Shown piece by piece: positions 51,285 to 56,884 of a stretch of DNA of 64,000 nt. The translations under genes were made by a program, and so were the position numbers. Numbering within the stretch: position 1 is the first letter of the stretch; each line of letters starts with the position of its first letter. The notes under the pieces were generated by a model. The model saw only the letters and a list, made by a program, of their open reading frames with translations, did not search any database and was not told the origin of the DNA. This DNA is from a virus: IMG/VR virus record IMGVR_UViG_3300012936_000005, positions 21,043 through 85,042 of that record; one strand, given 5' to 3'.

Positions 51285-52295
51285 ATGTTTAAGAAAGCGG
51301 CGGTATTTACAGATATTCACCTTGGGTTGAAGTCTAACAGTAGGCTACATCTTCAAGATTGTGAAGACTTTGTAGATTGGTTTATAGAACAAGCTAAAGA
51401 AAACGGTTGTGAGACCGGTATCTTTTGTGGTGATTGGCATCACAACAGAAATACTATTAATGTACAAACACTTGATAGCACAACTAGGTGTCTTGAAAAA
51501 CTAGGTGCGGCATTTGAAAAGTTTTATTTCTTTGCAGGTAACCACGATTTATATTACAAAGACAAACGTGATTTATACAGCCTTGAGTTTGGTAAACACA
51601 TTCCCGGTATTACATACGTAGATGAAATATTAGAAATAGATGATGTTGCATTAGTCCCATGGCTAGTAGGTGATGAATGGAAAAAGATTAGTAATATCAA
51701 AGCAAGATATATATTTGGTCATTTTGAATTGCCAAGTTTTTATATGAATGCTATGGTACAGATGCCTGATCATGGAGAACTAAAAGCAGAACACTTTAAA
51801 CATCAAGAATATGTATTCTCCGGACATTTTCACAAACGTCAAATACAAGGATCAATCCATTATATGGGTAACGCATTTCCGCACAACTATGCAGATGCAT
51901 GGGATGACAAACGTGGTATGATGATTCTTGACAAAGAAAATAACAAAGAACCACAATACATTGATTGGCTAGACTGTCCTAAGTATAGAACAGTAAAACT
52001 AAGTCAGCTATTAGATGACAAAGACAAACTACTTAAATCTAAAATGTATCTTAGAGTAACACTTGACTTACCTATAAGTTATGAAGAAGCGAGTTTTATC
52101 AAAGAAACATTTATCAATGATTATGATTGTAGAGAAATTACACTTATTCCAAGTCAAAAAGATGAGGAAATACACACCGACATTGACATTACACAATTTG
52201 AAAGTGTAGATGAAATTGTTACAAAGGAAATCACTGCATTGGATACAGAAAACTACAATAAGAAAATGCTATTAGGAATCTATGACGAACTATGA
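51285..52295 (+). CDS. recombination endonuclease subunit, T4 gp47/Mre11/SbcD-like
   Basis: DIH, GDW, GNHD, GHFE and SGHFH metallophosphoesterase motifs. Confidence 0.92.
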   Translation: MFKKAAVFTDIHLGLKSNSRLHLQDCEDFVDWFIEQAKENGCETGIFCGDWHHNRNTINVQTLDSTTRCLEKLGAAFEKFYFFAGNHDLYYKDKRDLYSLEFGKHIPGITYVDEILEIDDVALVPWLVGDEWKKISNIKARYIFGHFELPSFYMNAMVQMPDHGELKAEHFKHQEYVFSGHFHKRQIQGSIHYMGNAFPHNYADAWDDKRGMMILDKENNKEPQYIDWLDCPKYRTVKLSQLLDDKDKLLKSKMYLRVTLDLPISYEEASFIKETFINDYDCREITLIPSQKDEEIHTDIDITQFESVDEIVTKEITALDTENYNKKMLLGIYDEL

Positions 52296-54067
52296 TTAAA
52301 ATTAAAAGTTTAACTGTTAAGAATTTTATGAGTGTGGGTAATCAAACCCAGGCTGTTGATTTTGACAAACAACAACTAACGCTTGTACTAGGAGAAAACC
52401 TTGATCAAGGCGGTGACGACAGCGGATCACGTAATGGTACAGGTAAAACTACTATTGTAAACGCATTAAGTTATGCATTATATGGACTTGCGTTAACAAA
52501 TATTAAACGCAACAATCTTATTAACAAAACTAACAACAAAGGTATGTTAGTTACTCTGACATTTGAAAAAGATGGTAGAGAATACAAGATTGAAAGAGGT
52601 AGAGGACCTAATCTTCTTAAATTTTATGTAGATGGACAAGAGCAAGAAATGCTAGATGAGTCGCAAGGCGATTCACGTAAGACTCAAGAAGACATTATTG
52701 ATCTGTTAGGTATGTCCCATAATATGTTCAAGCATGTTGTGGCACTAAACACATACACAGAACCTTTCTTAAGTATGCGAGTAAATGATCAAAAGGATAT
52801 TATTGAACAGTTGCTTGGTATTACAATCCTTAGTGAAAAGGCCGAAGTACTTAAAGACAAACTTAGACAAACAAGAGAAGCAATTACAGACGAAACAGCT
52901 CGTATTAATGCTATTGAAACTAGTAATGAACGTATTGGAGAAACAATACGCAGTTTGCAAACAAAACAAAGTGCTTGGACTACAAAACAGCAACAAGATA
53001 TTACAAAGTTAGAGCGTTCAATCGACGAACTAGAGCATTTAAATGTAGAAGAAGAACTAGACAAGCACGAAAAACTGTCAACTTGGGAAGAACAAAATAA
53101 TGCTATTTTGGCTCTTAAAAAGGAATTAAGCACACTTGAGCCTGCATTAGTACGTGCAGACAATTCTGTAGAAAAAGCACAAAAAGACTCAGAAAATTTA
53201 GATCAAGGTACTTGTCATACATGCGGACAAACACTACACGACGACAAAAAAGAAGAACTAGCAGTCAAAAAAAATAAAGAACTTGAAGATGCAATAGCAT
53301 ATCAAAAAGAAGTAGGTGATAAAGTAGTTGATGTTACACAAGCACTAGAAGAAATTGGAGATATCAATGGTAAGCCTACTACATTCTATGAAACTATCAA
53401 AGAAGTTTACGATCATAAACAAAATGTTGCACAATTACAAGAAGCTCTTAGCCGTGCAAAAGCAGAAGTAGATCCTTATCAAGAACAAATTGACGAACTA
53501 AAGAATAGTGCAATACAAGAAATTGACTGGAATACTGTAAACGATCTTACAAGTTACAAAGAACACCAAGACTTTATGTTAAAACTGCTTACCAACAAAG
53601 ACAGTTTTATACGTAAGAAAATTATTGATCAAAACTTGGCATATCTAAACAACAGACTTACACATTATCTTGATAAACTAGGATTACCACATCAAGTTGT
53701 GTTCCAAAATGACCTTGCTGTAGAAATCACACAATTAGGACAAGATTTAGACTTTGATAATCTATCAAGAGGTGAGCGTAATAGACTAATACTTGGTATG
53801 AGCTTTGCATTCCGTGATGTTTGGGAGAGCTTGTATCAAAATATCAACTTGTTATTCATCGATGAGCTTATTGATAGCGGTATGGATACTAGCGGAGTTG
53901 AGAATTCACTAGGTATTCTCAAGAAGATGGGTCGTGAAAGAGATAAAAATGTATATCTTATCTCACACAAAGACGAACTAGTAGGAAGAGTAACACATGT
54001 TCTCAAAGTAATAAAGGAAAACGGATTCACATCATATGAGAATGATGTTGAAATACATAATGAATGA
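52292..54067 (+). CDS. recombination ATPase subunit, T4 gp46/Rad50/SbcC-like
   Basis: KNFMS, Walker A NGTGKTT, coiled coil with CHTC zinc hook, LSRGE signature, FIDE Walker B, ISH. Confidence 0.93.
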   Translation: MIKIKSLTVKNFMSVGNQTQAVDFDKQQLTLVLGENLDQGGDDSGSRNGTGKTTIVNALSYALYGLALTNIKRNNLINKTNNKGMLVTLTFEKDGREYKIERGRGPNLLKFYVDGQEQEMLDESQGDSRKTQEDIIDLLGMSHNMFKHVVALNTYTEPFLSMRVNDQKDIIEQLLGITILSEKAEVLKDKLRQTREAITDETARINAIETSNERIGETIRSLQTKQSAWTTKQQQDITKLERSIDELEHLNVEEELDKHEKLSTWEEQNNAILALKKELSTLEPALVRADNSVEKAQKDSENLDQGTCHTCGQTLHDDKKEELAVKKNKELEDAIAYQKEVGDKVVDVTQALEEIGDINGKPTTFYETIKEVYDHKQNVAQLQEALSRAKAEVDPYQEQIDELKNSAIQEIDWNTVNDLTSYKEHQDFMLKLLTNKDSFIRKKIIDQNLAYLNNRLTHYLDKLGLPHQVVFQNDLAVEITQLGQDLDFDNLSRGERNRLILGMSFAFRDVWESLYQNINLLFIDELIDSGMDTSGVENSLGILKKMGRERDKNVYLISHKDELVGRVTHVLKVIKENGFTSYENDVEIHNE

Positions 54068-54468
54068 TAATAGATAAGATTAAATCACGTGGCGAAGAAA
54101 TGAGTCCTTTGGAAGGGCATGATAGATTACAGTATATCATTGATCTTGCCAAGGAAGTACCTCCATTATCAGAAGAACACAAAACAGAAGATAATAAAAT
54201 CAGAGGTTGTGTAAGTAGTCTATGGGTAGTAGGTAAAGCAAATAATGATGGAACCATGTCATATCAACATGATGCTGAATCATACATGACCAAAGGCACA
54301 GCAAAAGTAATTGTAGATATTGTAAATGGTGAACAAAAAAGCGAAATAGCAAATTTAACACTAGAAAGTTTCCGCGGATTGGGTATTAAAGAATTACTAA
54401 CCATGCAGAGACAGGTTGGATTTGCCAGCTTGATACAACGTATCATAGGAATAGCACAAAATGGATGA
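54064..54468 (+). CDS. sufE: SufE-family sulfur-acceptor protein (Fe-S cluster assembly)
   Basis: DRLQYIIDLAK..P, NKIRGCVSSLW (catalytic Cys), DAES..TKG, LGI.ELLTMQRQVG. Confidence 0.85.
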   Translation: MIIDKIKSRGEEMSPLEGHDRLQYIIDLAKEVPPLSEEHKTEDNKIRGCVSSLWVVGKANNDGTMSYQHDAESYMTKGTAKVIVDIVNGEQKSEIANLTLESFRGLGIKELLTMQRQVGFASLIQRIIGIAQNG

Positions 54469-54658
54469 TACGCACGATAAATTAACTAAGGCATATATGG
54501 CATATTTTAAGGCAAACGAGAAATTCGAAGCTCGTAATTCTGTACGAACACATAGAGAAAGCAGAAAATGGTTACGTGAGATAAGATTACTAGCCAAAGA
54601 ACGTATGGATGAAATTCACTACAAACACAATTCCAAAAAAGAGGCCCCAGAATCATAG
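54461..54658 (+). CDS. small basic helical protein
   Basis: 65 aa; ANEKFEARNSVRTHRESRKWL; overlaps the sufE stop. Confidence 0.7.
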   Translation: MDDTHDKLTKAYMAYFKANEKFEARNSVRTHRESRKWLREIRLLAKERMDEIHYKHNSKKEAPES

Positions 54659-54676
54659 GCGACGGTAAGTACCAAT

Positions 54677-55099
54677 ATGCAATGGACTTATCAAGGTGAA
54701 AATGTTGAAGAAATACCAGAGGATGTAGAAGCATTTGTCTACTTGATAACAAATACAGTCAATGGCATGAAGTACGTAGGCAAGAAACTAGCAAAATTCA
54801 AAACAACGAAGCCACCGCTAAAAGGCAAAAAAAACAAAAGACGTGGAACAAAGGAGTCAGACTGGAGAGACTATTGGGGATCTTCAGACAGATTGATTGC
54901 GGATGTTGCACAACTAGGCGAAGACAAATTCACTAGAGAAATATTATACTACTGTCCAAGCAGAGGCATTGCAAGTTACTTAGAGGCCAGAGAACAATTT
55001 GAACGCAGAGTACTAGAAAATGATGATTACTACAATGGAATTATCAATGTACGTGTAGGCGGTTCAAAAATTCTTAAAGAACACTTAAAAACATTATAG
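54677..55099 (+). CDS. stand-alone GIY-YIG family endonuclease
   Basis: AFVYLITN...KYVGKK (GIY-YIG-like pair), YWGSS, FTREIL, conserved E (YLEA), YYN; no C-terminal DNA-binding domain. Confidence 0.75.
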   Translation: MQWTYQGENVEEIPEDVEAFVYLITNTVNGMKYVGKKLAKFKTTKPPLKGKKNKRRGTKESDWRDYWGSSDRLIADVAQLGEDKFTREILYYCPSRGIASYLEAREQFERRVLENDDYYNGIINVRVGGSKILKEHLKTL

Positions 55100-55104
55100 G
55101 CAAA

Positions 55105-55560
55105 ATACGGATACTGTTTGATCGGGGTTGCTCGATCCGCTTTGAGGACATGACCACATGTTCAGAACTAGCGAATCCACCAGGCTGTATGCTACGAAAA
55201 CTCCACGCAAGGGAACGAAGCGGGAGATAGCGAAGAAATCCGCGAAGCGGTAAAGCGGTTTTGCAAATTTTTTCGTGATGTCGACGTAGGTTGGGAAAGG
55301 TCAGAGCCCATGTAGCAAAGTCAAATACCTACTTCCGAATCTCGGCTGTGACGAACTCACATGAAGACCAAGATTAGATGGAACCGCTGTTAGGTTCCGT
55401 CTGACTGAAACAATCTACATGAAGCAATTACAATATCACTTACGTGATATTGCTTTAATTCAAGTAATTACTTCTATCACAAACGAAGTGTAAAGTTTGA
55501 GCGTAAGCGAAAACTAAATGAGCTTTAGCTCATTTCTAATTATTCTTGTAAACAGTCCAT
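55105..55560 (+). ncRNA. candidate large structured non-coding RNA (~450 nt)
   Basis: ORF-free and GC-richer than the genome; terminal helix 55109-55120/55549-55558; several internal helices with G-U pairs that only work on the + strand; GNRA-capped hairpin. Confidence 0.6.
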
Positions 55561-55618
55561 AACAATACTAGAGTTATTAATATAAAGTATACGTATGGAT
55601 TGCACATCTGATGAATAT

Positions 55619-55804
55619 TTAGTGTAATTCCGGATCTCTTCCAAAGCCTGGTTTGACACTGCTAACTTCGAAAGTTTCATATCTAAGTTCTAAATGAGGC
55701 TGTTGTTCACGCATAGTATCAATATACTGTACTGCTTCTTCAATGCTGTTTAGAACTTCGATTTCGTTATCCGCGTTGTCAACAATGCGATATCGTGTTA
55801 TCAT
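55619..55804 (-). CDS. small hypothetical protein
   Basis: 61 aa, ATTAAATA late-type motif 6 nt before the ATG. Confidence 0.65.
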   Translation of the reverse strand: MITRYRIVDNADNEIEVLNSIEEAVQYIDTMREQQPHLELRYETFEVSSVKPGFGRDPELH

Positions 55805-55839
55805 AATTGATATTTAATATGTAATTATCAATTCAAAAG

Positions 55840-55847
55840 TATAAATA
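55840..55847 (+). promoter_or_regulatory. T4-type late promoter TATAAATA
   Basis: Exact T4 late consensus upstream of the GGGAG SD and ATG at 55869. Confidence 0.75.
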
Positions 55848-55868
55848 TAATTAATCGGGAGACTAACT

Positions 55869-56645
55869 ATGAAAGTATACGACGTTTTAACAGAATCTAA
55901 GCAAGTTGACGAAGGTCCTATTAGATTTTTAAAAAGAACACTGGGAAAAAACACAGCTATGGGCAAAGCCGCACAGCTAGATGTTGAATTAGACAAAGAA
56001 GTGTCTGATATATACAAAGACTTTGTTGCTGTAAGCAAACAAGATCCTAAAATGGGCGGTATGACTGCTAAAGGACTTGCTAATTTTCTAAAAGCAAAAG
56101 GTTTTGTAAGTAAACCTAGTGACGTAATGTCGTATGTTAATCAAGAACCTAGTCTAGGTAGAAAAGCTTCTAAAGCAGGTAAAAAAGTTGCTAAAGGCGC
56201 TAAAGCGGCCGCTGGCGCGGCTAAGTCCGGAGCAAGCAAAGTAGGACAAGCGGCTAGCAAACTTAAGAAAAAACTTTCTCCTGAACCAACAGGACTTACT
56301 CCAGATCAACCTAATCTCCCAGGTATTGAAAGTATGTACAGTGAAGCAAGACTTATGGAAGTTGATGTAAAACTGTCCGGTGGACAAGCAAAGAAAATTA
56401 TCAAACGTTTTGTACAGCAAGGCTTTCAAAAGCAAATGGGCAACAGACTATCTAAAAGTAGTTACGGCGATGCTCCTGCAGATACAGCTAAAGGATCTAG
56501 TTCAAATACGGCTAGTGCATCTAGTTCTAAATCAGATGCGAAAGCAATGGCAACTCCTACAATGGACGTTGCAAGTGCAATTAAGTTTTTGAGATCACAA
56601 GGTTATACTGTAACTGCTCCTAAGAAACAAAAGCAAAAAGCATAA
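55869..56645 (+). CDS. Lys/Ala-rich protein, possible internal head protein
   Basis: Late promoter; N-terminal LTE/VDE motifs; basic KA-rich central region. Confidence 0.6.
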   Translation: MKVYDVLTESKQVDEGPIRFLKRTLGKNTAMGKAAQLDVELDKEVSDIYKDFVAVSKQDPKMGGMTAKGLANFLKAKGFVSKPSDVMSYVNQEPSLGRKASKAGKKVAKGAKAAAGAAKSGASKVGQAASKLKKKLSPEPTGLTPDQPNLPGIESMYSEARLMEVDVKLSGGQAKKIIKRFVQQGFQKQMGNRLSKSSYGDAPADTAKGSSSNTASASSSKSDAKAMATPTMDVASAIKFLRSQGYTVTAPKKQKQKA

Positions 56646-56647
56646 TC

Positions 56648-56884
56648 CTACCAAAAAGGCATACCTGACTTTTTAGCAGATTCCATATTTTCTTTGATAA
56701 GGTCTGAAATTATAGCTCTATCGTCCATGTCTAACAAATAACAATCGTCTAACGGTATTCCGCCACGCATCCACCAAGAGATACGTATCATCTCATTTTT
56801 TATTTGCTTGACCTCGCCCTCTAGGACCTTAACCTCGTTTTGGATTTTTTCGAGGCTCCACGTTAAGATCCTTATCCGAAAAAA
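56648..56884 (-). CDS. -1 frame extension of the gp26-like gene (gp51-like/GT-type chaperone tail); 47 aa if started from the ATG at 56791
   Basis: Not in the ORF track. Frame opens exactly at the T TTT TTC slippery site: FFRIRILTWSLEKIQNEVKVLEGEVKQIKNEMIRISWWMRGGIPLDD...SGMPFW*. Confidence 0.7.
   Translation of the reverse strand, partial: FFRIRILTWSLEKIQNEVKVLEGEVKQIKNEMIRISWWMRGGIPLDDCYLLDMDDRAIISDLIKENMESAKKSGMPFW

What the first reader, a model, noticed from the sequence alone, without database searches (positions are those of the whole stretch)
54664..55560. Minimal GIY-YIG nuclease followed directly by a ~450-nt multi-domain structured RNA: candidate phage ribonucleoprotein system
Seen: the largest ORF-free gap in the window starts right after the GIY-YIG stop (55099) and is visibly GC-richer than its surroundings. 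It has a closing helix GG-ACTGTTTG (55109-55120) / TAAACAGTCC (55549-55558). Internal helices are GATCGGG/CTCGATC (55120-55137), CCGCTTTG/TAAAGCGG (55137-55144/55251-55258), GGACATG/CATGTTC, GCTA..CTCC.CGC/GCG.GGAG.TAGC (55191-55231), GTAGGT/ACCTAC (55286-55332) and a 12-bp TTAGATGGAACC/GGTTCCGTCTGA (55374-55404). A hairpin AGTTT-GA-GC-GTAA-GC-GA-AAACT (55494-55515) has a GNRA loop and tandem GA pairs. G-U pairs consistently favour the + strand. The nuclease has a late-type promoter and no obvious terminator before the element. Known: homing GIY-YIG enzymes carry extra DNA-binding domains, which this 140-aa protein lacks. Inference: a co-transcribed nuclease and RNA (guide/scaffold RNP, ribozyme or packaging RNA); an origin or primer RNA is an alternative.
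Basis: partly seen in the sequence, partly recalled or inferred. Interest (0 to 1): 0.85.

Follow-up and report, generated by a model that had tools for sequence, protein, structure and literature searches.

The report
Twin-box phage RNA beside nuclease
The gene-free stretch after a small DNA-cutting-enzyme gene of this uncultured marine T4-like phage encodes a real, roughly 430-base, knotted RNA from an uncatalogued family; the enzyme appears to be a frequent neighbour and not the RNA's partner.

Summary
Positions 55100-55618 are by far the largest ORF-free gap in the window. The gap is G+C-richer than its surroundings (49% against about 35%) and folds better than shuffles (z = -5). A homologous element lies in the same place in more than 100 uncultured phage contigs. 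Base-pair counts on two independent clades show strong compensatory change, and G-U pairs mark + as the RNA strand. RNA-library contigs from four studies cover the element.

The closing helix, CCGCTTTG/TAAAGCGG and GCTA/TAGC do not. GCUAC instead pairs 120 nt downstream, which makes a pseudoknot. No late promoter lies before the nuclease gene.

No Rfam family matches, no tRNA or tmRNA is found, and nothing similar appears in 50,697 cultured phage records or 185,579 prokaryote genomes.

The nuclease link is positional only. Relatives carry the RNA behind a PD-(D/E)XK nuclease gene instead, or behind an extra gene. A 230-kb contig has the RNA and no GIY-YIG. Many GIY-YIG loci lack the RNA.

The oddest feature is two 7-nt boxes 58 nt apart (55359, 55417). 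They take eight forms across phages and are identical to each other in every sequence where both were found (about 10 joint switches). No complementary partner was found within the RNA or its flanks. The function is unknown.

This scan has already met the same family on other genomes.

The parts
54677..55099 (+). 140-aa GIY-YIG nuclease gene, catalytic domain only. It is the upstream neighbour and not shown to be part of the RNA system.
   Evidence: Pfam PF19835 SegE_GIY-YIG, E = 4e-33, residues 3-123. PHROG 447. More than 590 relatives in IMG/VR and 591 cultured phage records.
55105..55545 (+). The non-coding RNA gene, about 430-440 nt. It runs from the conserved 5' UGUUUG to the terminator hairpin and its U-rich tail.
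   Evidence: The nhmmer family profile matches 55105-55538. Homologues lie in 50 of 80 GIY-YIG loci and in all 81 P1-motif loci, the latter carrying at least the 5' domain. RNA-library contigs cover 55181-55570.
55120..55137 (+). H1 hairpin, GAUCGGG-GUUG-CUCGAUC. It is nearly invariant and serves as the family signature.
   Evidence: 100% paired in both clades. A-U changes to G-C at the second pair, and G-U changes to A-U.
55138..55173 (+). H2 (55138-41/55170-73) encloses hairpin H2a (55146-52/55157-63) and a conserved UUGAG / GAACU internal loop.
   Evidence: All 4 H2 pairs show compensatory change and are 100% paired in clade B. In H2a, 6 of 7 pairs show double changes.
55183..55322 (+). Long-range helices H3a (55183-86/55319-22) and H3 (55190-95/55312-17). 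They cross H6/H7 and so form a pseudoknot.
Evidence: H3 has double changes in 6 of 6 pairs and is 95.5% paired.
55201..55226 (+). H4 (CUCC/GGAG) plus H4b (CGC/GCG), capping the conserved loop RGGAACGAA.
   Evidence: U-A changes to C-G in 11 of 26 sequences. The equivalent clade B helix covaries in 3 of 4 pairs.
55230..55276 (+). H5 (55230-34/55272-76) encloses a variable insert that some relatives have deleted.
   Evidence: All 5 pairs show double changes and are 98% paired.
55280..55346 (+). H6 (55280-84/55342-46, untested), H7 (55286-91/55327-32) and H8 (55292-95/55307-10), which has an 11-nt loop.
   Evidence: These are invariant in clade A, so that clade is uninformative. The clade B equivalents of H7 (100% paired, 3 of 4 pairs with double changes) and H8 covary.
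55299..55305 (+). 5' strand of pseudoknot PK1 (GGUCAGA, in the H8 loop), pairing with UCUGACU at 55400-55406.
   Evidence: 100% complementary in 26 clade A sequences but invariant there. In clade B it is 74% paired with one compensatory G-C to C-G change. Support is moderate.
55338..55375 (+). Hairpin Pa (55338-41/55372-75), with box 1 in its loop.
   Evidence: The closing pairs change A-U / G-C / G-U in clade A. Clade B shows many register-shifted complementary versions, seen by inspection. The column count is poor (50%) because the register shifts.
55356..55366 (+). Twin box 1, CUC-ACAUGAA-G.
   Evidence: Exact 8-nt direct repeat with box 2. The 7-nt core is identical to box 2 in all 62 clade A/B sequences, in 8 variants, with about 10 joint switches on a tree.
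55376..55402 (+). H9 hairpin. The core is 55379-85/55393-99. The three outer pairs compete with PK1.
   Evidence: 96.7% paired in clade A. In clade B it is 94.6% paired with 3 pairs compensatory.
55400..55406 (+). 3' strand of PK1 (UCUGACU).
   Evidence: See the entry for the PK1 5' strand.
55414..55424 (+). Twin box 2, UCU-ACAUGAA-G.
55431..55452 (+). H10, a variable hairpin after box 2. Relatives have a UUCG-capped hairpin here.
   Evidence: Three pairs show double changes. It was also flagged as terminator-like.
55494..55515 (+). H12: a hairpin with a GNRA-type loop, a 2-bp stem and tandem G-A/A-G pairs.
   Evidence: 33 distinct versions with 15 different outer stems, nearly all fully complementary. 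The GA..GA core is conserved and the inner pairs covary.
55516..55535 (+). H13: a terminator-like hairpin that scores on both strands, so it may end the RNA and the convergent - strand gene.
   Evidence: Four pairs show double changes.

Best explanation
Positions 55105-55545 (+) are a stand-alone gene for a stable, trans-acting structured RNA of about 430 nt. It belongs to an uncatalogued family confined, as far as the collections searched show, to uncultured aquatic T4-like myoviruses.

Location. The gene keeps a fixed genomic slot: after the gp47-gp46-nuclease recombination genes and before the convergent baseplate-hub genes. It ends at an intrinsic-terminator-like hairpin.

Fold, supported by comparison; the pseudoknots rest on crossing helices and the weakly supported PK1. 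There is a nearly invariant 5' hairpin domain (H1-H2), a long-range pseudoknotted core (H3 crossing H6/H7, plus PK1), and a tandem-GA/GNRA hairpin before the terminator.

Twin boxes (shown). The core presents two 7-nt boxes, apparently single-stranded, 58 nt apart. They change between phages but are always identical to each other.

Mechanism (inferred). The folded RNA acts as a scaffold or decoy that offers two equal docking sites to one outside reader present in two copies. No complementary strand was found inside the RNA or within about 5 kb of it.

The nuclease. The GIY-YIG gene is a habitual neighbour because both genes occupy the end of the same module. It is not the RNA's protein partner.
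For: - Reality of the RNA: clade A is 90.3% paired against 32-40% for slid controls, with 31 pairs changed on both sides and 0 of 500 shuffles as good. Clade B is 86.9% paired against 39-49%, with 26 such pairs.
- Strand: G-U outnumbers A-C by 6-7 fold on the + strand.
- Expression: contigs from four metatranscriptome studies lie on 55181-55570. In two of those studies the contigs that matched lie on the RNA.
- Terminator: hairpin at 55516-35.
- Fixed slot but swappable neighbour.
- Twin boxes: 62 of 62 sequences have identical cores in 8 variants, with about 10 joint switches.
- No partner found: no complementary hexamer inside the RNA, no covarying column, and nothing positionally conserved in the flanks.
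- Single copy in the window.
Against: - The function is not shown by anything here.
- Expression rests on contigs from RNA libraries. These cannot show ends, strand or level, and can contain carried-over DNA.
- No promoter was demonstrated. Only a semi-conserved ATA-type element lies about 7-12 nt before UGUUUG, so the RNA could simply be the 3' end of the nuclease mRNA.
- In every context seen, the gene in front, or one gene further up, is a DNA nuclease of some fold. A looser functional tie to 'a nuclease' is therefore not excluded.
- Two of the three variable box positions are always purines and could pair with invariant U's, so an internal partner using G-U pairs cannot be ruled out.
- PK1 has mismatches in some lineages.
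Confidence: 0.6

Rival explanations
1. Nuclease-RNA particle. The RNA is the guide or scaffold of the adjacent 140-aa GIY-YIG enzyme and supplies the target recognition that the missing DNA-binding domain would otherwise give.
For: The RNA starts about 10 nt after the nuclease stop codon, with no terminator between. The enzyme is catalytic domain only. Of 66 close GIY-YIG loci, 42 have the RNA directly downstream. The twin boxes vary the way programmable guide segments would.
Against: The RNA occurs behind a PDDEXK_15 gene with no GIY-YIG within 700 nt upstream (the twin-box form in 5 loci, the shared 5' domain alone in 7 more), and with an intervening gene in 2. A 230-kb contig with the RNA has no GIY-YIG hit. 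24 of 66 GIY-YIG loci lack it. Melnitz and several hundred cyanophage records carry the enzyme family; in Melnitz, the one context inspected, it has no such neighbour. No complement of the boxes was found near the locus.
Confidence: 0.06
2. Recombination- or replication-linked RNA. This could be a structured primer or origin transcript (in the manner of ColE1 RNA II or T4 R-loop origins), or a cofactor that works with whichever structure-specific nuclease (GIY-YIG or PD-(D/E)XK) sits in the gp46/gp47 module.
For: Synteny is invariant, directly after gp47-gp46-nuclease whatever the nuclease fold. An A+T-rich stretch follows the element.
Against: The RNA ends in a terminator-like hairpin, not in a run-on transcript. 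Selection acts on RNA pairing throughout about 430 nt, including G-U pairs. From established knowledge, T4 origin transcripts are not known to need this. No promoter or unwinding element was identified. Two unrelated nuclease folds are unlikely to share one RNA cofactor.
Confidence: 0.1
3. Decoy or antitoxin-like RNA. The two boxes are recognition or cleavage sites for a sequence-specific host endoribonuclease (a toxin of an abortive-infection or toxin-antitoxin system). The RNA soaks up that enzyme, as pseudo-ToxI repeats do for ToxN.
For: The commonest box 2 contains UACAU. From memory, not tested here, this resembles MazF-type recognition words.
Against: The repeats are only 7-11 nt, not whole near-identical units. 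TRF finds no tandem array spanning the boxes or the RNA. No toxin-like gene is adjacent, and Pfam and PHROGs give no hit for the flanking small ORFs. Rfam type III antitoxin models do not match. This is a special case of the best explanation and is wholly untested.
Confidence: 0.1
4. Cis-acting 3' untranslated element. The structure only stabilises, terminates or insulates the upstream early or middle operon at the border with the convergent late genes.
For: It lies at the end of a + strand gene run, facing - strand genes. It has a terminator that scores on both strands. No promoter of its own has been proven.
Against: About 430 nt with at least 12 conserved helices, pseudoknots, invariant loops and co-switching boxes is far more than termination or 3' protection needs. 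It stays the same while the upstream gene changes. In two RNA libraries the contigs that matched lie on the element alone.
Confidence: 0.08
5. Not an RNA gene at all. It would be a missed or decayed protein gene, a relic of a group I intron or mobile element around a homing nuclease, or a set of DNA-level repeats (iterons or recombination sites).
For: GIY-YIG genes classically travel with group I introns (established knowledge). The boxes are direct repeats in DNA as well.
Against: All six frames are closed. Substitutions preserve pairing, not codons. The element lies after a stop codon and before a convergent gene, so there are no exons to join. Rfam intron models do not match even at E = 10. 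The G-U/A-C asymmetry indicates selection on one RNA strand. No inverted arms flank the boxes, by inspection.
Confidence: 0.03

Closest known systems
GOLLD and ROOL large ornate RNAs (Rfam; cryo-EM in PMC12286853)
   Same: Large (over 400 nt), multi-helix, pseudoknotted non-coding RNAs of unknown function. They are often carried by phages or prophages, were found by comparative genomics, and are transcribed as separate genes.
   Different: There is no sequence or model similarity: no Rfam match at the gathering score in the window and in 16 of the 23 relatives searched, nor at E up to 1 in the other 7 and E up to 10 around the window element. No tRNA genes lie nearby. The hosts are marine T4-like myoviruses. 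The twin co-switching boxes have no described counterpart. Whether this RNA forms oligomers is unknown.
Free-standing GIY-YIG (Seg-type) homing endonucleases of T4-like phages
   Same: The upstream protein matches the SegE GIY-YIG catalytic domain and lies between conserved phage genes next to an RNA gene. T4 segB similarly lies among tRNA and stable-RNA genes (established knowledge, and a lead from earlier notes).
   Different: At 140 aa it has no DNA-binding extension. It is about 80% conserved in hundreds of contigs; in the window and in the contexts inspected it follows gp46. Where it is absent it is replaced at that slot by a PD-(D/E)XK nuclease. That looks more like a resident module gene than a roaming homing gene.
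RNA-guided nuclease and recombinase systems with adjacent structured RNAs (IscB/TnpB omega RNA, IS110 bridge RNA)
   Same: A nuclease gene is followed by a long structured RNA on the same strand, and the RNA has short variable segments set in a conserved scaffold.
   Different: Co-occurrence is not obligate in either direction. The protein is a bare GIY-YIG domain with no known RNA-binding part. The variable segments are two identical copies, not a target-specific guide. No complementary target was found.
Polynucleobacter-1 motif (Rfam RF01718; Weinberg et al. 2010, PMC2864571)
   Same: Earlier notes of this scan named it as the closest catalogued motif for divergent members of the family. It is an orphan motif from fresh-water and estuary sequence (PMC2864571).
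   Different: It does not match here. There is no hit at E up to 10 in the window's 85-kb record or in five relatives' records, and none at the gathering score in 16 further loci. It is 141 positions long, against about 430 nt here.
Candidate structured RNAs mined from IMG/VR (PMC10690425)
   Same: The same data source and method (homologous intergenic regions plus covariation) were used, so pieces of this RNA may be among its 8,495 'DNAVirus_X' candidates.
   Different: Those candidates are 29-151 nt long, and none is described as a 430-nt RNA with twin boxes. The supplementary alignments are not held here, so any overlap could not be checked.

Membership tests
Any Rfam 15 family (4227 models, including GOLLD, ROOL, HEARO, OLE, RNase P, tmRNA, 6S, group I/II introns, ToxI and marine IMES/Ocean motifs) | Covariance-model score at or above the curated gathering score | tested here: not met
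   There were 0 matches in the 64-kb window. Only two chance-level hits to unrelated families appeared at E up to 10 in 54400-56000. There were 0 matches in 23 relatives' loci.
Polynucleobacter-1 (RF01718) | Match to the 141-position model | tested here: not met
   No match at E up to 10 in the window's own record or in five relatives' records.
Group I intron carrying a homing endonuclease | Interrupts a host gene whose exons join into one reading frame | tested here: not met
   The element lies after the GIY-YIG stop codon and before a convergent 61-aa ORF, so there are no flanking exon halves.
Group I intron carrying a homing endonuclease | Conserved catalytic core recognised by the intron model | tested here: not met
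   No Intron_gpI hit, even at E = 10.
tRNA / tmRNA | Cloverleaf or tRNA-like domain with a tag reading frame | tested here: not met
   ARAGORN finds 0 genes in the window.
Guide-RNA nuclease systems (omega RNA / bridge RNA type) | Obligate co-occurrence of the RNA with its cognate protein gene | tested here: not met
   The RNA occurs without the GIY-YIG, and the GIY-YIG occurs without the RNA.
Guide-RNA nuclease systems (omega RNA / bridge RNA type) | Variable guide segment complementary to a target or to the element's own ends | tested here: inconclusive
   No complement of the boxes is positionally conserved in the loci (up to about 4-10 kb either side) or enriched in the 64-kb window. Targets elsewhere, such as in the host, cannot be searched.
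Type III toxin-antitoxin antitoxin RNA (ToxI-like) | Tandem array of near-identical repeat units followed by the toxin gene | tested here: not met
   TRF finds no tandem array spanning the boxes or the RNA (only two weak two-copy matches of 11-14 nt). Only the 8-nt boxes repeat. The neighbouring ORFs have no family hit.
Seg-type free-standing GIY-YIG homing endonuclease (for the protein) | GIY-YIG catalytic domain | tested here: met
   PF19835, E = 4e-33.
Seg-type free-standing GIY-YIG homing endonuclease (for the protein) | Additional DNA-binding domain | tested here: not met
   The protein is 140 aa, and the domain spans residues 3-123 of it.
Seg-type free-standing GIY-YIG homing endonuclease (for the protein) | Sporadic, mobile distribution among close relatives | tested here: inconclusive
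   The protein is 75-97% identical in the best 80 of about 600 IMG/VR hits, and where the context was inspected it sits after gp46. However, it is replaced by a PDDEXK gene in some phages and lies elsewhere in Melnitz.

The most novel reading that the evidence does not exclude
The RNA is a programmable two-site adaptor. Its two identical boxes base-pair with two copies of a short word in a DNA or RNA target, for example the two arms of a branched or repeated recombination intermediate. This would hand the target to whichever structure-specific nuclease (GIY-YIG or PD-(D/E)XK) is encoded just upstream, making it an RNA-directed step in T4-type recombination or anti-host attack that works with unrelated nuclease folds.
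Probability: 0.07. Interest if true: 0.95.

Novelty: new variant of a known kind. Interest (0 to 1): 0.6.

Why it matters
Large, intricately folded RNAs with no known function are rare, and they have repeatedly led to new biochemistry. This one is widespread in uncultured marine and fresh-water T4-like phages, which are among the most abundant viruses in those waters. It is not matched by any Rfam 15 model and was not found in any cultured phage record searched.

Its two boxes change together about ten times yet never differ from each other. That is an unusual evolutionary signature, pointing to an unknown outside reader that differs between phages or hosts.

At about 430 nt, with a well-defined fold, the RNA is also a good candidate for cryo-EM.

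For annotation, the result corrects a tempting but unsupported 'RNA-guided GIY-YIG nuclease' reading.

Tried and rejected
- Rfam at the gathering score and at permissive E-values on the window and 23 related loci: nothing.
- RF01718, the lead from earlier notes: no match in six records.
- ARAGORN: no tRNA or tmRNA.
- blastn of three family members and of the conserved 5' domain against 50,697 cultured phage records: no real match.
- Exact 23-nt H1 pattern in one genome for each of 185,579 prokaryote species: 0 hits. This tests only that exact pattern.
- Internal partner for the twin boxes: no Watson-Crick or G-U complementary hexamer at a conserved place, and no column complementary to the informative box position.
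- Partner in the flanks: no positionally conserved reverse complement within the loci, and no enrichment in the window.
- Box 1 pairing with box 2: only the commonest variants (CAUG, UAUG) would pair. The GAUA, AAUG and GAUG variants would not, so this was rejected.
- A conserved small ORF starting at the boxes: rejected, because the box spacing varies (54-67 nt) and is not held to multiples of 3.
- RNAalifold on mixed-clade alignments gave poor structures, because the clades differ in architecture and the fold is knotted. Helices were therefore set by hand and counted.
- In the metatranscriptome lay, parts of the stretch (55118-55154 and 55600-55700) had no contig. This is not used as evidence. 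The contig ends (55539, 55559, 55570) do not coincide, so no 3' end is claimed.
- Supplementary alignments of PMC10690425 are not held, so overlap with its candidates could not be checked.
- No covariance model was built, because the 400-column limit does not fit the full RNA. nhmmer profiles were used instead.
Full report
**Setting.** The window is a fragment of an uncultured marine T4-like myovirus. It is part of an 85-kb IMG/VR record that CheckV estimates to be 23% complete. Around the finding, the + strand carries:
- gp47-like and gp46-like recombination nuclease genes (51285-54067);
- a SufE homologue;
- a 65-aa ORF;
- a 140-aa protein that is a bare SegE-type GIY-YIG domain.

After the gap come a convergent 61-aa ORF, a + strand gene with the only local TATAAATA late-type promoter word (55840), and a gp26-like baseplate-hub gene on the - strand. 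The closest cultured relative of the nuclease is the OM43 phage Melnitz (71% identity, Kyanoviridae).

**The observation.** Positions 55100-55618 are the largest ORF-free stretch of the window: 519 nt, against 226 nt for the runner-up. G+C rises to 0.49, against about 0.35 nearby. The + strand folds at -138.7 kcal/mol, z = -4.97. The - strand also folds well (z = -4.07), so folding energy alone does not pick the strand.

**Homologues.**
- The GIY-YIG protein has about 600 relatives in IMG/VR.
- An nhmmer profile of the gap finds a homologous element directly downstream in 50 of the best 80 loci.
- An exact search for the 23-nt H1 signature returns 81 more viral loci, all with at least the 5' domain.
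- After removing duplicates, 69 distinct full-length sequences remain, about 40 of them below 90% identity to one another.
- They fall into the window's clade A, a sister clade B with the same overall plan, and a clade C that shares only the 5' domain.
- Among 'RNA-less' GIY-YIG loci, eight carry a further variant (clade D) that shares the H4 module.

**Structure.** Mixed-clade RNAalifold runs were uninformative because the fold is knotted and the clades differ. I therefore set helices by inspection and had them counted.

On 26 clade A sequences (A3):
- 99 proposed pairs are 90.3% paired, against 32-40% when the partners are slid;
- 31 pairs change on both sides;
- none of 500 shuffles reaches the observed values on four of the five measures.

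H2, H2a, H3, H4, H5, H10 and the terminator covary. H6, H7, H8 and PK1 never vary in this clade, so it says nothing about them.

On 21 clade B sequences (A4), 48 pairs are 86.9% paired, against 39-49% for slid controls, with 26 pairs doubly changed. This includes the equivalents of H2 (4 of 4 pairs), H4, H7 (100% paired) and H9. PK1, which joins the H8 loop to the segment just 3' of H9, is 74% paired there with one G-C to C-G swap. I rate its support as moderate.

The tandem-GA/GNRA hairpin H12 occurs in 33 versions with 15 different, nearly always complementary outer stems. G-U pairs outnumber A-C 211 to 32 and 112 to 18, so the + strand is the one under selection.

H3 (55190-95/55312-17) crosses H6/H7, so the core is pseudoknotted.

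- The closing helix, whose 3' arm lies beyond the terminator, is not conserved.
- CCGCTTTG pairs locally, as CGCU/AGCG (55138-41/55170-73).
- GCTA/TAGC is replaced by the long-range H3.
- No late promoter precedes the nuclease gene.

**Expression.** One lay of contigs from four metatranscriptome studies places RNA-library contigs on 55181-55570. In two studies (231-nt and 261-nt contigs) what matched lies on the element itself. In the other two, the nuclease gene is covered as well. This shows presence in RNA libraries. It does not show ends, strand or level, and DNA carry-over cannot be excluded. A terminator-like hairpin that scores on both strands lies at 55516-55535. A semi-conserved ATA-containing word about 7-12 nt before UGUUUG may be a -10 element, but no promoter was demonstrated.

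**Twin boxes.** ACAUGAAG occurs at 55359 and again at 55417. In all 62 clade A/B sequences the 7-nt core (R-N-A-U-R-A-W) is identical in the two copies. Across phages it takes eight forms:

| Core | Sequences |
|---|---|
| ACAUGA | 43 |
| AGAUAA | 7 |
| GGAUAA | 4 |
| AGAUGA | 2 |
| GGAUGA | 2 |
| GGUGAA | 2 |
| GUAUGA | 1 |
| GAAUGA | 1 |

On a tree built without the box columns, the type changes about 10 times, always in both boxes. The flanks stay different (CUC against UCU).

This is parallel covariation, not complementary covariation. I found:
- no complementary hexamer at a conserved place in the RNA;
- no column complementary to the informative second position;
- no positionally conserved complement in the fetched loci (up to about 4-10 kb either side) or in the window.

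Pairing of the two boxes with each other works only for the commonest variants. Box 1 sits in the loop of hairpin Pa, and box 2 lies between PK1 and H10. Both are preceded by similar segments (UCGGCUG / UCUGACUG). In clade B a third pair of look-alike words (GCGAAG-type) precedes H7 and forms the 3' strand of H9. The core therefore looks like an old tandem duplication and may have alternative pairings.

Every box variant contains a UGA or UAA overlapping an AUG or GUG. I record this without an explanation. No conserved reading frame starts there.

**Is the nuclease the partner?** The evidence says no.
- Twelve P1-motif loci have a PF24608 (PDDEXK_15) nuclease gene, similar to phage Holliday-junction resolvases, in place of the GIY-YIG directly upstream of the element. 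Five of them (L101, L111, L140, L143, L155) carry the twin-box clade B RNA; the other seven are clade C and share only the 5' domain.
- Two loci have an extra gene between the GIY-YIG and the RNA.
- The 230-kb record behind L143 (66% complete) has the RNA and no GIY-YIG hit.
- Of 66 GIY-YIG loci with at least 450 nt downstream, 24 lack this RNA by nhmmer.
- In Melnitz the gene follows the ribonucleotide reductase genes, with only a 150-nt gap after it.

What is constant is the slot: gp46, then a nuclease, then the RNA, then the baseplate-hub genes. Two unrelated nuclease folds alternate at that slot. This suggests that the 140-aa GIY-YIG protein is a resident structure-specific nuclease of the recombination module and not a roaming homing enzyme.

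**Comparison with what is known.**
- No Rfam 15 model matches the window or 23 related loci.
- Earlier notes of this scan named the Polynucleobacter-1 motif as the closest catalogued entry. It does not match the window's record or five relatives at E up to 10.
- No cultured phage record and no prokaryote genome (exact H1 pattern) holds it.
- The nearest kind is the set of large ornate RNAs of unknown function, such as GOLLD and ROOL (PMC12286853), with which it shares size, complexity and phage association but no homology.
- A 2023 survey of IMG/VR listed 8,495 short candidates of 29-151 nt (PMC10690425). Fragments of this RNA may be among them, but that could not be checked.

**Earlier notes.** This scan has reported the same family from other genomes. 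My independent tests agree with those reports on the main points: the RNA is real, it has twin boxes, and the nuclease is swappable. They do not reproduce the Rfam link.

**Verdict.** This is a real, expressed-looking, knotted non-coding RNA of about 430 nt from an uncatalogued phage family. It is probably a trans-acting scaffold or decoy whose two identical boxes are read by one outside partner. It is not a guide for the GIY-YIG nuclease. The function remains unknown.

Noticed in passing
window 54677-55099; L162:2758-3339, L101:2663-3166, L143:1189-1710: At the same slot after gp46, related phages carry either the 140-aa GIY-YIG gene or a PF24608 PD-(D/E)XK nuclease gene similar to phage Holliday-junction resolvases. 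This looks like non-orthologous displacement. It suggests that the GIY-YIG, widely mis-annotated as 'NAD synthetase', is a resident structure-specific nuclease and not a homing enzyme.
   Followed up: partly
L014, L021, L031, L040, L044, L049, L055, L063 (about 0-450 nt after the GIY-YIG stop): A different structured element follows the GIY-YIG in these loci. It lacks the H1 signature but shares the H4 module (AAAAGGAUGUAGG...GAGAAAAAGCAACCUAC) and a GGUAGUG word with clade C. The family therefore seems to be a mosaic of modules.
   Followed up: no
L016, L066, L068, L069 (after the GIY-YIG stop): A sigma-70-like promoter (TTGACA...TATACT/TATAAT) is followed by runs of AAACUAAAACUUAAAC-type repeats and then a G+C-rich stretch that may be another RNA.
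   Followed up: no
clade B alignment A4, columns 209-216 and 393-400; window 55288-55292 and 55392-55396: A third pair of look-alike words (GCGAAG / UGUGAA / CAAAU types; UAGGUU in the window) changes in parallel. One copy is the 3' strand of H9, so the other copy could compete for the H9 5' strand. This hints at alternative folds or an ancient tandem duplication of the core.
   Followed up: partly
window 55359-55365 and 55417-55423, and all relatives: Every twin-box variant keeps a UGA or UAA stop triplet overlapping an AUG or GUG (AUGA, UAAUG, UGAUG, GUGA). No conserved reading frame starts there, and the meaning is unexplained.
   Followed up: partly
window 54064-54468: A phage-encoded SufE (Fe-S cluster assembly) homologue (PF02657, E = 1e-29) sits between gp46 and the nuclease gene.
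   Followed up: no
window 55195-55202 and 55508-55515: CGAAAACU occurs twice: once before H4 and once as the 3' strand of H12. The H12 5' strand could therefore pair with either copy in this clade.
   Followed up: no
window 55840-56645: The only TATAAATA late-promoter word in the region precedes a 258-aa Lys/Ala/Ser-rich protein with no family match.
   Followed up: no
window 56646-56871: The second-largest ORF-free gap at the 50- and 60-aa cut-offs (226 nt) lies between that gene and the gp26-like hub gene. It overlaps a 47-aa - strand ORF with a WWMRGG motif that recurs next to the hub gene in relatives.
   Followed up: no
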